This document shows, in pieces, positions 57,001 to 60,000 of a DNA stretch of 64,000 nt (positions are counted from its first letter, which is position 1; each line of letters starts with the position of its first letter). Source of the stretch: a virus (Duplodnaviria; Heunggongvirae; Uroviricota; Caudoviricetes); the IMG/VR virus record IMGVR_UViG_3300046047_000272. One strand, 5' to 3'. The position numbers are program-made.

Positions 57001-60000
57001 AGTGTTGCTTCTGATCGACTACCTTCAGCGTATCTGTTCTCCGGTCCTAGAGGATGCGGAAAGACGACGGTCGCATTGATTCTTGCTAAGGCTATGAATT
57101 GCGAGAACCCTGATGGTCAGGGTAATCCATGCAATCATTGTCCGACATGCCTCTCCATTGATCGCGGAAATTGCATAGGTGTGCATTATATCAGCGCCGT
57201 CAATTTGAAGAACGGAGCCACGGATATTCGAGAAATCGTGGATAAGGCTAAAAGGCGGTCCATGATTCATCGACCAGTATGGATCATTGATGAGATCCAG
57301 CGATTGTCAGTACAATCATTAGACGCCTTCCTTATACCATTAGAGGACACAAATCTCCCCTCGATGTTCATTTTCTGTACGACTGAAATTGACAAGATAC
57401 CATTAACCATCACCAGTAGAGTCCAGCAGCGCGCCTTCAAGCTACTGTCTAAGAATAAGCTTATCACATTATGTGAATCGGTTCTAACTCAGGAACAATA
57501 CGAGTGTATTGACGAAGCAGACAGGAAGGCCATTGAGGCCGAGGATTCTACGAAAGACTTAGATCAACGTCGTAAGGTCTATTCTAAGGAGCTTATCTAT
57601 AAGGCTGTTAAGGACGCTGGTACAACATTTGAGGGTGGTTCTGCCCGACAGGTGCTATCAGAGCTTGACCATCTCCTATCATCGCCCACTTCATCTAAGC
57701 ATGATTGGACAAGAGCTATCGCCACTGATCTATTCTTAGATACACCAAGGAATCCATGTGGTAATGTTAAGCAGGCGCTAACTGACGTGTCTCAGGCCAT
57801 TCAAGACGATGCTGACGTGAAGATCCTGCTGAGATCACTCGTCGACTTTATCCGTGAAATGATTCTCATCACTAATCTTGATGATACATCATCGTATCCA
57901 AGGAAACGTGTTGAAACAGCGAATCGTCTCGGAGATGTCGTTCTTCTGAAATGTTTCCGAATCATCGGGAAGGCTCAAAGGGACTCAAATTTCGATAGTG
58001 ACGCCAGAGTTTATCTTGAGGTTGCTCTTGTAGAGTTAAGCATCATTTTGCAACAGCGAATGGAGGAGATTGCAGCATGATCATTACATCAAATCAAAAC
58101 TTCTCATATGATGTTGAACGAGATGGACGGCACATCGTTCTGAACATGAAATGGCACACTGACGCTAAAACACTATCCATGCTTCTCGATCATAATAGCT
58201 CGTCACATCTTGACCAATTACTTGGATTAACATTATCCGCTGATCCATATGATCGCGGACAATTATCCGATGGTGATCTCCTTGATCTGAATGCTATGAG
58301 CTGGTTAACGCATCACATTAACAATCAGAAGCCTGTTCTTGGAGCCGAGGGGAAGACCATATACCTATCATTTGATTACGGTCATGAAACTGAGAAGTCG
58401 GTATATACGGTCGAATTGTTAGCAGACGATCAACATCAGGCAGACTCATGTCTGACCATGAATCAAGATGGAGATTATCGTAGGTATCGTTACGATAAGA
58501 TGACGTCAATGATTACTGTTAATGTACTTGACAAGGACGCTGATACCATTACGCCACATCATCAATCACAGGATACGGCGAAGCCCTGGTATCTGAAAAT
58601 GCTTAGATGACCCGCGGTCGTATTGCTGACATCATGCGATCGTGATATACTCCTTAGTAAGAGTACGATTGTTTCATATTGTGGTAAAGGAGTTATTGTG
58701 TCGTCAAACGATGGTCAACATCGCAGGGTGAATCGTCAAATCACCGCCCAGAAAGTTATCCTGATAGACGCTAATGGTAGCAAGACCGGCGAATGGCCGA
58801 TTGACGTTGCTCTTAGCGTCGCTGAGCGAGAAGGACTTGATCTTATCGAGATGGATGGTCACCGAGTACCTCCTATCGTCAAATTGGGTGATTACTTTAA
58901 GGAGCGCTATAAGGATCAGCAACGATTGAAGGCTCAGCGTCGACACGCGAAGAGCCAACAAGTCAAGGAAATCCGGTTACGACCTAAAACGGAAACCCAT
59001 GATCTCCTGACGAAGACCAATCAGATCAAGAAATTCTTGAATCGTGGTGATAAAGTCAAAATCACCGTTATGATGAAGGGTCGTGAACGAGATCATAAGA
59101 ATCTTGCGTATGATGTGTTACAGAAGATAGTTGCGGACTTATCAGCGGTTGGTAAGATATCTACTCCTGCTGCATTCAATGGATCAATGGTCAGCATGAC
59201 TATTAGCCCATTATCGTAATCATTCTGTGCATATAATCACAGTTAGAGGACCCTATACTGGGGTCCTCAGATCTTGTCTAGCTCATATGATAGGGTACTG
59301 TATAGGAGGATAGGAGAGGAGCTCATGTCTACATCATCACTGAAAGCATCAACAATAACCATAAGAGACGATCAGAGCGTCGATCGTCTCGTTATGAGAT
59401 TACTGCACATTGCTTCAACGACCACATTGCAAGATATGGATGTCGATGTCATCAGAACACTATTGAACGAGATCATACTGTCCGATGATCCACGTCATGG
59501 TTTTGAGGCCTTAACTGATAATGGCATTCTAGCAGCTATCTTACCAGAGCTTTTCGCTTTATACGTGTCAGATCAGACTAGCCGTGGATTGCATAAACTG
59601 AACTTCGAGCATTCCATGATTGTTCTTCAACAAGCCATAGCATTAGAGTCTGATGGCCCTGACTTGACACTTCGTCTAGCAGCCGTCTTACACGATGTTG
59701 GCAAGGCACCTACTCGTGTCTTCAACGGCCGAGCTAAAGTGACCTTCGACGGTCATGAGGCCGTTGGTGCTGCCATGATAGCTAAGCGTCTGCGTATTTT
59801 AGGATACGATTCTGTAATGATTCATGATGTCACAGAGCTCATCAGATTACATATGAGAGCGCATGGCTATGAGCATCAGAATGGTGATCATTCAGAGACA
59901 TGGAACGATGCTGGTGTCAGAAGATTCATCAAGGACGCTGGCCCACTGCTTGATCGATTAATGATCATCACGAAAGCTGATATCACAACCATCCATCCGA

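What the first reader, a model, noticed from the sequence alone, without database searches (positions are those of the whole stretch)
58698..59219. Element-encoded IF-3 with a GTG/ATT start
A full-length IF-3 homolog is encoded next to dnaX. A virus encoding translation initiation factor IF-3 is rare and is reported mainly from huge phages.

The only well-placed start after the AAAGGAG ribosome-binding site is ATT-GTG. This mirrors the non-AUG autoregulatory start of bacterial infC and suggests that the autoregulation is retained.
Basis: partly seen in the sequence, partly recalled or inferred. Interest (0 to 1): 0.5.

Follow-up and report, generated by a model that had tools for sequence, protein, structure and literature searches.

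The report
Huge-phage IF-3 gene, GTG start
A very large bacteriophage carries its own full-length copy of the bacterial translation initiation factor IF-3, which is already known from huge phages, but it starts with an ordinary GTG codon, so the self-limiting control that bacteria build into this gene is most likely lost.

Summary
Window 58698-59219 (+) encodes a 173-aa, two-domain IF-3. It matches Pfam IF3_N and IF3_C, passes the NCBIfam infC equivalog cut-off, and its AlphaFold model matches solved IF-3 structures. The contig is a 491-kb huge phage. The dnaX-like gene is one ORF away, not adjacent.

The interpretation does not hold. GTG (58698) lies 5 nt after AAAGGAG, the usual spacing in this window. 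ATT (58695) lies only 2 nt after it. In the only two relatives found, the homologous codon is TTG. It is preceded by GCA, TCA or GCG and then an in-frame stop, so no ATT is conserved. IF-3 treats GUG and UUG as canonical, so the AUU/AUC-based autoregulation of bacterial infC is not mirrored.

A survey supports this:
- Of 80 proteobacterial infC loci, 67 have only ATT/ATC/ATA, mostly 7-8 nt after a Shine-Dalgarno motif.
- Of 44 informative viral IF-3 clusters, one does. The rest use ATG (22), TTG (13) or GTG (8).
- Non-ATG starts are four times commoner than in flanking genes.

This lineage also lacks R25, an arginine that contacts initiator tRNA.

Verdict: a new member of a known kind, of low to moderate interest.

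The parts
58623..58651 (+). Promoter-like site of the sigma-70 extended -10 type: TTGCTG (58623-58628), 17-nt spacer containing TG at 58643-58644, TATACT (58646-58651). The predicted leader is about 40 nt.
   Evidence: Pattern scan: 15 sites in the window against 8.0 +/- 2.6 in shuffles. Eight lie close upstream of genes in the right orientation, including rIIA. TGaTATAAT recurs upstream of IF-3 in L009 (4620-4628) and in L166/L167. Function is inferred, not shown. The stock scanner did not list the site because the -35 matches only 3 of 6.
58686..58692 (+). Shine-Dalgarno sequence AAAGGAG
   Evidence: Read directly. AAGGAG/AGGAG is the usual motif in this window, 5-12 nt before the start.
58695..58697 (+). 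In-frame ATT directly before the start codon. Judged not to be the start.
   Evidence: It lies only 2 nt after the SD. It is not conserved: relatives have TCA, GCA or GCG here with an in-frame stop just upstream.
58698..59219 (+). IF-3 coding sequence, 173 aa, GTG start, TAA stop. N-domain about 58728-58934, linker helix at residues 66-83, C-domain about 58959-59210.
   Evidence: GTG lies 5 nt after the SD. Its position is homologous to the TTG start of the relatives, and all leave 10 residues before the V/I-N that opens IF3_N.
58728..58730 (+). Internal GTG that the JGI gene call used as the start (163-aa product P0001). Judged a mis-call.
   Evidence: No SD at a usable distance. The homologous codon in relatives is ATC. 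The 10 residues upstream are partly conserved (M1, N4, R9).
59225..59268 (+). Two stem-loops just after the stop codon (59225-59242 and 59246-59268, the second GC-rich with 10 bp). Probably the transcript 3' end or a stabiliser.
   Evidence: RNA fold of 59215-59300: -28.9 kcal/mol, z = -3.5, 0 of 200 shuffles as stable. L009 has a 14-bp GC-rich hairpin followed by TTTCC in the same place (z = -3.8). There is no clear T-run in the window, so terminator function is inferred.
56896..58080 (+). Context: DnaX-like clamp-loader ATPase, 394 aa
   Evidence: Pfam DNA_pol3_delta2 7.3e-28 and DNA_pol3_gamma3. TIGR02397 scores 222 bits, below its cut-off of 250. 65% identical to the L009 copy.
59325..60260 (+). 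Context: truncated CCA-adding enzyme with RNA-binding and HD parts only, 311 aa
61736..63931 (+). Context: array of 7 tRNA genes (Pro x2, Asn, Lys x2, His, Leu)
   Evidence: ARAGORN.

Best explanation
This is a phage-encoded, full-length translation initiation factor IF-3 in a huge phage of about 0.49 Mb. It sits in a conserved block: DnaX-like clamp loader, IF-3, CCA-enzyme, tRNA array.

Shown:
- Both IF-3 domains and the linker helix are intact, and N16, Y75, R99, K110 and R133 (E. coli numbering) are kept.
- The gene starts at GTG 58698, 5 nt after a strong Shine-Dalgarno sequence.
- The homologous start in the only known relatives is TTG.

Inferred:
- The gene is transcribed on its own from a host-type extended -10 promoter of the same class as the one before rIIA, so probably early. 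The transcript ends at or is stabilised by a 3' hairpin.
- The protein binds the host 30S subunit through its C-domain, like bacterial IF-3. That keeps subunits apart and feeds initiation during infection.
- Because its start codon is canonical (GUG), its synthesis is not throttled by IF-3 the way bacterial infC (AUU/AUC/AUA) is, so the phage uncouples IF-3 supply from the host feedback loop.
- If the phage factor still discriminates start codons, it would further repress the host's AUU-started infC and gradually replace host IF-3.
- Loss of R25 (Ile here, Met in the relative), the arginine that contacts the initiator-tRNA elbow, suggests weaker start-codon or tRNA proofreading than in host IF-3.
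For: Identity.

Phage context:
- rIIA (phrog_612, 2.7e-45), RNA ligase/PNK and RNR, gp30.3, 7 tRNAs.
- The contig is 491 kb. The syntenic relative is a 419.7-kb IMG/VR contig.
- L35 and L20 genes are absent beside all 71 viral IF-3 loci but present beside 56 of 80 bacterial ones.

Start codon:
- SD spacing.
- Relatives L009, L168, L169, L166 and L167 have TTG at the homologous codon, with a stop one codon further upstream.
- GUG and UUG are canonical for IF-3, and infC autoregulation acts on AUU/AUC (PMC5499595).

Bacterial versus viral contrast:
- 67 of 80 bacterial loci have only ATT/ATC/ATA with an SD, mostly at 7-8 nt.
- Viral clusters: ATG 22, TTG 13, GTG 8, ATT 1.

Promoter class and conservation. 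3' hairpin.

R25:
- Ile in the window and Met in L009. R in 78 of 80 bacterial and 37 of 45 viral sequences.
- R25 is described as invariant, it contacts the i-tRNA elbow, and R25A fails to restore start-codon fidelity (PMC9723500).
Against: - No expression, proteomic or ribosome-binding data exist for this gene. Every functional step is inferred from homology.
- Several C-domain arginines that are near-invariant in the proteobacterial sample are changed (R112N, R129M, R168S), so 30S binding could be weaker or different.
- In one in vitro system a 10-fold excess of IF-3 lowered GUG-mRNA translation by 20-25% (PMC5499595), so weak residual feedback is not excluded.
- The promoter-like class is only about two-fold enriched over shuffles, and its -35 is poor.
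- Only two other lineage members are known, so comparative support for the start is thin.
- The relatives' SD lies 13-14 nt from the TTG, which is unusually far.
Confidence: 0.75

Rival explanations
1. One reading: translation starts at ATT 58695, or at ATT and GTG together, and the phage gene keeps infC-style autoregulation through a non-canonical start codon.
For: ATT is in frame and directly precedes GTG. Bacterial infC does use ATT/ATC/ATA. One viral contig (L061) does have a bacterial-type ATT start: AAGGAG, 7 nt, ATT, with no canonical codon in frame. Four viral clusters show an AUH codon directly before the GTG/TTG.
Against: ATT lies 2 nt after the SD, against mostly 7-8 nt in bacterial infC and 5-12 nt for this window's genes. 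The relatives have TCA, GCA or GCG at that codon and a stop before it. Within the 'ATC TTG' family, members with ACT, TTC or a stop codon at that position keep the TTG/GTG, so the AUH is not what is conserved.
Confidence: 0.05
2. The true start is the internal GTG at 58728, as in the JGI gene call. That gives a 163-aa IF-3 without the N-terminal tail.
For: JGI annotation P0001. The Pfam IF3_N match begins exactly at this residue. The first 6 residues of the 173-aa model are disordered.
Against: There is no SD at a usable distance: AGG abuts the codon. The homologous codon in relatives is ATC. Another gene caller chose 58698 (P0121). Tail length is the same (10 residues) and three tail positions are identical between window and L009. 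Bacterial IF-3 normally has such a tail.
Confidence: 0.07
3. The gene is a recently captured, decaying or functionless host gene, or the contig is bacterial rather than viral.
For: The protein is only about 41% identical to any non-lineage sequence, and several arginines conserved in the proteobacterial sample are replaced.
Against: The ORF is intact and both domains model confidently. The gene and its neighbourhood are conserved at 51-65% protein identity in a second huge phage, together with promoter-like and hairpin elements. There is no infC-rpmI-rplT operon context. Phage genes lie throughout the window.
Confidence: 0.05
4. The same gene and the same GTG start, but the non-AUG start is itself functional. 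Viral IF-3 genes favour GUG/UUG to set a moderate expression level or to keep weak IF-3 sensitivity, a softened feedback rather than none.
For: GTG/TTG start 21 of 43 viral IF-3 clusters, against 30 of 242 flanking genes called by the same rule (Fisher p = 2.7e-7). At 50% identity, 11 of 26 groups are all GTG/TTG. In this window only 3 of 37 GGAG-led genes are non-ATG. Excess IF-3 lowers GUG-mRNA translation by 20-25% in vitro.
Against: Start calls are heuristic. The groups are not fully independent. The reported IF-3 effect on GUG is small and on UUG marginal. The bias could reflect the history of the gene rather than selection.
Confidence: 0.25

Closest known systems
IF-3 genes of jumbo and huge phages: Escherichia phage 121Q gp47 and other Asteriusvirus, Sinorhizobium phage Phosso, and the huge phages of Al-Shayeb et al. 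2020 (LR756500, LR756504, LR756511)
   Same: All are stand-alone, full-length IF-3 genes in genomes above 300 kb, outside the infC-rpmI-rplT operon and often near other translation or RNA genes. They have canonical start codons (121Q and the LR7565xx phages ATG, Phosso GTG)..
   Different: They are only 28-34% identical to this protein. This one and its two relatives form their own group below 42% identity to all others. The lineage has R25 replaced by I or M, whereas those phages keep R. The neighbourhood also differs (DnaX-like, CCA enzyme, tRNA array).
Bacterial infC (IF-3), for example E. coli infC in the thrS-infC-rpmI-rplT cluster
   Same: The same two-domain protein. It passes the TIGR00168 equivalog cut-off and aligns end to end with solved IF-3 structures. 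N16, Y75, R99, K110 and R133 are conserved.
   Different: The start codon is GTG, not AUU/AUC/AUA. There is no L35/L20 operon. R25, R112, R129 and R168 are replaced. It has its own promoter-like site and hairpin.
IMGVR_UViG_3300044557_000292 (419.7 kb; loci L009/L010/L165) and ENA contigs L166/L167
   Same: These are orthologues: IF-3 51-52% identical, DnaX-like 65%, and for L009 the same gene order. They share the same N-tail length, the TGaTATAAT promoter-like box and, in L009, the 3' hairpin. Their start is also non-ATG canonical (TTG)..
   Different: TTG instead of GTG, with the SD 13-14 nt away rather than 5 nt. No ATT before the start. In L009/L168/L169 there is no 177-aa ORF between dnaX and IF-3, and L009 and L168 carry a full-length CCA-adding enzyme where the window has only the C-terminal part.

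Membership tests
Translation initiation factor IF-3 (InfC; TIGR00168, Pfam IF3_N + IF3_C) | N-terminal IF3_N domain present over its full length | tested here: met
   PF05198 at 1.3e-17, profile 1-69 of 70. The model's N-domain matches 1tif with TM 0.86 and rmsd 1.5.
Translation initiation factor IF-3 (InfC; TIGR00168, Pfam IF3_N + IF3_C) | C-terminal IF3_C ribosome-binding domain present over its full length | tested here: met
   PF00707 at 3.8e-28, profile 2-85 of 86. The model's C-domain matches 1tig with TM 0.90 and rmsd 1.3.
Translation initiation factor IF-3 (InfC; TIGR00168, Pfam IF3_N + IF3_C) | Basic helical linker joining the two domains | tested here: met
   The model has a helix at residues 66-83 (YFKERYKDQQRLKAQRRH), with pLDDT falling to about 69 at its end. 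It aligns with the Lys-rich linker of E. coli, Geobacillus and Thermus IF-3.
Translation initiation factor IF-3 (InfC; TIGR00168, Pfam IF3_N + IF3_C) | Scores above the curated equivalog cut-off | tested here: met
   TIGR00168 scores 151.7 bits against a cut-off of 60, over profile positions 3-167 of 170.
Translation initiation factor IF-3 (InfC; TIGR00168, Pfam IF3_N + IF3_C) | Conserved functional residues (E. coli numbering): R25 and R66 (initiator-tRNA elbow), Y75, and the C-domain basic residues R99, K110, R112, R116, R129, R131, R133, R147, R168 | tested here: inconclusive
   Kept: Y75, R99, K110, R133. Conservative Lys: R66, R116, R131, R147. Lost: R25 to I, R112 to N, R129 to M, R168 to S. 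The role of R25 is from PMC9723500. The roles of the C-domain arginines are from my memory of the mutagenesis literature and were not checked here.
Translation initiation factor IF-3 (InfC; TIGR00168, Pfam IF3_N + IF3_C) | Binds the 30S subunit, prevents subunit association and proofreads the start codon and initiator tRNA | not testable with these tools
   This needs biochemistry or complementation of an infC mutant.
infC-type translational autoregulation | A non-canonical AUU/AUC/AUA start codon at normal SD distance, with no competing canonical start | tested here: not met
   GTG lies 5 nt from the SD and ATT only 2 nt. Relatives have TTG with a stop just upstream. Bacterial control: 67 of 80 loci show AUH with an SD, mostly at 7-8 nt.
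infC-type translational autoregulation | Expression falls when IF-3 is in excess | not testable with these tools
   This needs a reporter assay. The literature says GUG is treated as canonical, with at most a 20-25% reduction at a 10-fold IF-3 excess in vitro.
Bacterial infC operon (thrS-infC-rpmI-rplT) | L35 and L20 genes directly downstream | tested here: not met
   The downstream gene is an HD/CCA-enzyme fragment. L35/L20 were found beside 0 of 71 viral loci and 56 of 80 bacterial loci.
Huge/jumbo phage | Genome above 200 kb with phage hallmark genes | tested here: inconclusive
   An identical protein lies on a 491,046-bp JGI contig. The window holds rIIA, gp30.3, RNA ligase/PNK, RNR, a transglycosylase and a tRNA array. 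The relative is a 419.7-kb IMG/VR viral contig. No capsid, portal or terminase gene lies in this 64-kb window, and the whole contig could not be read.

The most novel reading that the evidence does not exclude
As a class, phage IF-3 genes have escaped the IF-3 feedback loop that is near-universal in the bacteria sampled. They have replaced the AUU/AUC/AUA start with canonical codons, with a four-fold excess of GUG/UUG over neighbouring genes. Some lineages, including this one, have also lost R25, the otherwise invariant arginine that contacts the initiator-tRNA elbow. Such a phage would make an unregulated, proofreading-relaxed IF-3. That factor would take over the host 30S pool while the host's own AUU-started infC stays repressed or is further repressed. 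I found no paper describing this start-codon pattern.
Probability: 0.3. Interest if true: 0.55.

Novelty: new member of a known kind. Interest (0 to 1): 0.27.

Why it matters
On its own the gene is one more example of huge phages carrying translation factors, which was reported in 2020 and earlier for 121Q-like phages. The useful result here is negative: the start-codon resemblance to infC autoregulation is superficial.

The wider survey gives a simple, testable rule. Bacterial infC is built to be throttled by its own product. Viral copies almost never are. That bears on how large phages take over the host translation machinery. It also gives annotators a practical hint: call viral IF-3 from GTG/TTG/ATG, and bacterial infC from ATT/ATC/ATA. 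The JGI call for this very gene is probably 10 codons too short.

Tried and rejected
- Megablast of 56000-61500 against GenBank phages found no match.
- Close-relative scans of IMG/VR with the IF-3 peptide patterns found nothing. The relative was reached only through the HD protein.
- Further scans for lineage members added only L166/L167 and near-identical copies of L009 (L168/L169). These used viral contigs with A5 and A6, metagenome contigs with A5, and the 5.8-billion protein set with A5.
- P0001 could not be looked up on its contig, so the rest of the 491-kb contig was not examined.
A bacterial alignment, A2, was used instead, so the control set is almost entirely Proteobacteria.
- The stock promoter scanner did not list the IF-3 promoter-like site. 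My own extended -10 pattern did.
- The 5' leader shows no unusual RNA structure (z = -0.9 in the window, +0.1 in L009), so I dropped the idea of a structured regulatory leader.
- Leaderless mRNA idea: the DnaX-like gene has a -10 box 7 nt before its ATG. This is not conserved in L009, so I did not pursue it.
- 'ATT-GTG' or 'ATC-TTG' as a vestige of an ancestral AUH start: 4 of 21 GTG/TTG-start clusters have it, but three belong to one family, so it is consistent with chance.
- TTG 58623, the longest ORF, was rejected as the start. It has no SD, it overlaps the promoter-like -35, and the frame is closed in relatives.
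Full report
**What is there.** The ORF in frame with GTG 58698 ends at TAA 59217-59219 and encodes 173 aa.
- It matches Pfam IF3_N (E 1.3e-17, profile 1-69/70) and IF3_C (3.8e-28, profile 2-85/86).
- It passes the NCBIfam infC equivalog model, TIGR00168, at 151.7 bits against a cut-off of 60.
- It aligns end to end with solved IF-3 chains: 5me0_Y at 6.8e-28, E. coli 8jsg_A at 2.8e-26, Thermus 5lmn_X at 1.7e-25.
- An AlphaFold2 model built on 35 homologues has mean pLDDT 87. It shows the expected N-domain, a long linker helix (residues 66-83) and the C-domain.
- Foldseek against the PDB returns full-length IF-3 first (9a5a_B 2.2e-19, 5lmn_X 5.7e-18). The isolated domain structures 1tif and 1tig match at TM 0.86 and 0.90.

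So the refutation condition 'N-domain missing' is not met.

**Where it sits.**
- The window has no near match in GenBank phages. It does carry rIIA, RNA ligase/PNK, ribonucleotide reductase, a T4 gp30.3-family protein, a transglycosylase and seven tRNA genes.
- The same protein, with a shorter start call, lies on a 491,046-bp JGI contig. An identical 17-kb Logan contig also exists.
- A syntenic relative is a 419,707-bp IMG/VR contig, L009. Its DnaX-like protein is 65% identical, IF-3 51%, the CCA enzyme 50%, and the next ORF 40%.
- The DnaX-like gene (56896-58080) is not the direct neighbour. A 177-aa ORF without any family match lies between it and IF-3. This ORF is absent in L009.

**How rare it is.** Phage-encoded IF-3 is already known.
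- 93 of 50,697 phage records hold a match. These are chiefly 121Q-like jumbo coliphages, Phosso and the LR7565xx huge phages.
- The literature reports IF1 and IF3 in huge phages (PMC7162821), IF3 in group 2.2 jumbo phages (PMC7824862) and IF3 in phage Sharanji (PMC11895373).

**The start codon.** AAAGGAG occupies 58686-58692, ATT 58695-58697 and GTG 58698-58700.
- In this window, 37 ORFs have a GGAG close upstream of a candidate start. The start lies 5-12 nt downstream of it. It is ATG in 34 and non-ATG in three.
- In three of the four cases where an ATG lies 2-3 nt from GGAG, a second ATG lies at 6-8 nt. GTG at 5 nt fits this pattern. ATT at 2 nt does not.
- The other lineage members settle the point. 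In L009, L168 and L169 the gene reads TAG-TCA/GCA-TTG-GGT-AAG. In L166 and L167 it reads TAA-GCG-TTG-GGT-AAG.
- So a canonical TTG occupies the position homologous to the window's GTG, a stop closes the frame just upstream, and there is no ATT. All leave 10 residues before the V/I-N that opens the IF3_N domain.
- The JGI start at GTG 58728 has no usable SD and corresponds to ATC in the relatives. TTG 58623 has no SD and overlaps the promoter-like site.

**Why this undoes the autoregulation idea.** IF-3 accepts AUG, GUG and UUG as canonical and rejects the rest. infC is autoregulated because it begins with AUU or AUC (PMC5499595). A GUG start therefore does not mirror infC.

I tested the contrast directly.
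- Bacterial control: of 80 proteobacterial infC loci, 67 have only ATT, ATC or ATA preceded by an SD motif, mostly at 7-8 nt. One has a canonical codon with an SD. Many have no canonical codon in frame at all.
- Viral set: the 71 IMG/VR loci plus the window's own gene were grouped at about 80% identity, giving 46 clusters, of which 44 were informative. One (L061) shows the bacterial pattern. The others use ATG (22), TTG (13) or GTG (8).
- The viral loci are not stray bacterial operons. None of the 71 has an L35 or L20 gene within 3 kb, against 56 of 80 bacterial loci within 1.5 kb.

**An unexpected by-product.** By one and the same start-calling rule, GTG/TTG start 21 of 43 viral IF-3 clusters but only 30 of 242 flanking genes (Fisher p = 2.7e-7). 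At 50% identity there are 26 groups: 13 all ATG, 11 all GTG/TTG, one mixed and one ATT. The rule is heuristic and the groups are not fully independent, so I treat this as a lead. In vitro, a 10-fold excess of IF-3 lowers GUG-mRNA translation by 20-25% and AUU-mRNA translation by more than 60%. A weak residual feedback therefore cannot be excluded.

**The protein itself.** All positions use E. coli numbering.
- N16, Y75, R99, K110 and R133 are kept.
- R66, R116, R131 and R147 are Lys.
- R25 is Ile (Met in L009), R112 is Asn, R129 is Met and R168 is Ser.
- R25 is described as invariant. It contacts the initiator-tRNA elbow at all stages, and R25A fails to restore start-codon fidelity (PMC9723500).
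- In my samples it is Arg in 78 of 80 bacterial and 37 of 45 viral sequences.

This suggests, but does not show, a factor with weakened proofreading.

**Expression signals (inferred).**
- TTGCTG-N17-TATACT, with TG one base before the -10, lies at 58623-58651. Sites of this form number 15 in the window against 8.0 +/- 2.6 in shuffles. Eight lie just upstream of genes, including rIIA.
- The TGaTATAAT box recurs upstream of IF-3 in L009 and in L166/L167.
- The 5' leader is not unusually structured.
- Two hairpins follow the stop codon (59225-59242 and 59246-59268; z = -3.5). L009 has a strong hairpin in the same place.

Together these suggest a monocistronic, host-polymerase and therefore probably early transcript.

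**Verdict.** The gene is a new and rather divergent member of the known class of huge-phage IF-3 genes. The proposed retention of infC-type autoregulation is not supported. The likely biology is the opposite: a copy freed from that control.

Noticed in passing
window 59325-60260 (+); L009 5239-6849; L168 3656-5149: The gene after IF-3 is only the C-terminal ~60% (RNA-binding plus HD domain) of a CCA-adding enzyme. It matches TIGR02692 positions 199-465 of 466 at 251 bits, below the cut-off of 438.8. The relatives carry the full 497-536 aa enzyme with the nucleotidyltransferase head, and no head domain is found anywhere in the 64-kb window.
   Followed up: partly
window 61736-63931: An array of seven tRNA genes (Pro-CGG, Pro-TGG, Asn-GTT, Lys-CTT, Lys-TTT, His-GTG, Leu-TAA) runs to the window end. 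The tRNA-Asn call (62583-62672) is 90 nt, unusually long for that tRNA type.
   Followed up: no
window 9695, 16651, 22318, 41764, 55020, 58623, 61420 (+) and 54999 (-): A family of extended -10 promoter-like sites (TTGnnn-N14-16-TGnTAnnnT, often TTGCC...TGATATGAT) lies just upstream of genes, including rIIA and IF-3. There are 15 sites against 8.0 +/- 2.6 in shuffles.
   Followed up: partly
window 58077-58610 (+): A 177-aa ORF between the DnaX-like gene and IF-3 has no Pfam or PHROG match and is absent from the syntenic relative L009. It overlaps the dnaX stop by 4 nt.
   Followed up: partly
window 56859-56896 (+): The DnaX-like gene has no Shine-Dalgarno sequence. A good sigma-70-type promoter match (TGGTCA-18-TATAAT, 10 of 12) ends 7 nt before its ATG, which would give a leaderless or near-leaderless mRNA. 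The arrangement is not conserved in L009.
   Followed up: partly
window 3834-5294 (+): A transposase-like ORF (phrog_12300, 6.8e-41) lies beside a stretch with higher G+C (0.48 against about 0.445).
   Followed up: no
window 7157-8632 (+) and 44103-45365 (+): Two RNA-repair type proteins both hit phrog_8238: a polynucleotide kinase plus RNA ligase fusion, and a kinase/phosphatase protein. Together with the tRNA array and the CCA-enzyme fragment they point to a tRNA-repair toolkit.
   Followed up: no
L061 (IMGVR_UViG_3300015202_000004, 193,979 bp), around 3001: This is the only viral IF-3 in the survey with a bacterial-type start: AAGGAG, 7 nt, ATT, and no ATG/GTG/TTG in frame before the N-domain. 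It also has Gln at the R25 position.
   Followed up: partly
window 58728; proteins P0001 and P0121: Public gene calls disagree on this gene. JGI starts it at the internal GTG (163 aa) and the Logan call at GTG 58698 (173 aa). Many database IF-3 entries of 151-154 aa begin at the internal 'M/V-R-L-I' and look like similar truncated calls.
   Followed up: partly
L009 4681-4701; L166 around 1325-1347: In the relatives, the GGAG/GGAGG before the TTG start lies 13-14 nt upstream, far longer than the 5 nt in the window, and the intervening AAGATAGTA is conserved. The reason is unknown.
   Followed up: no
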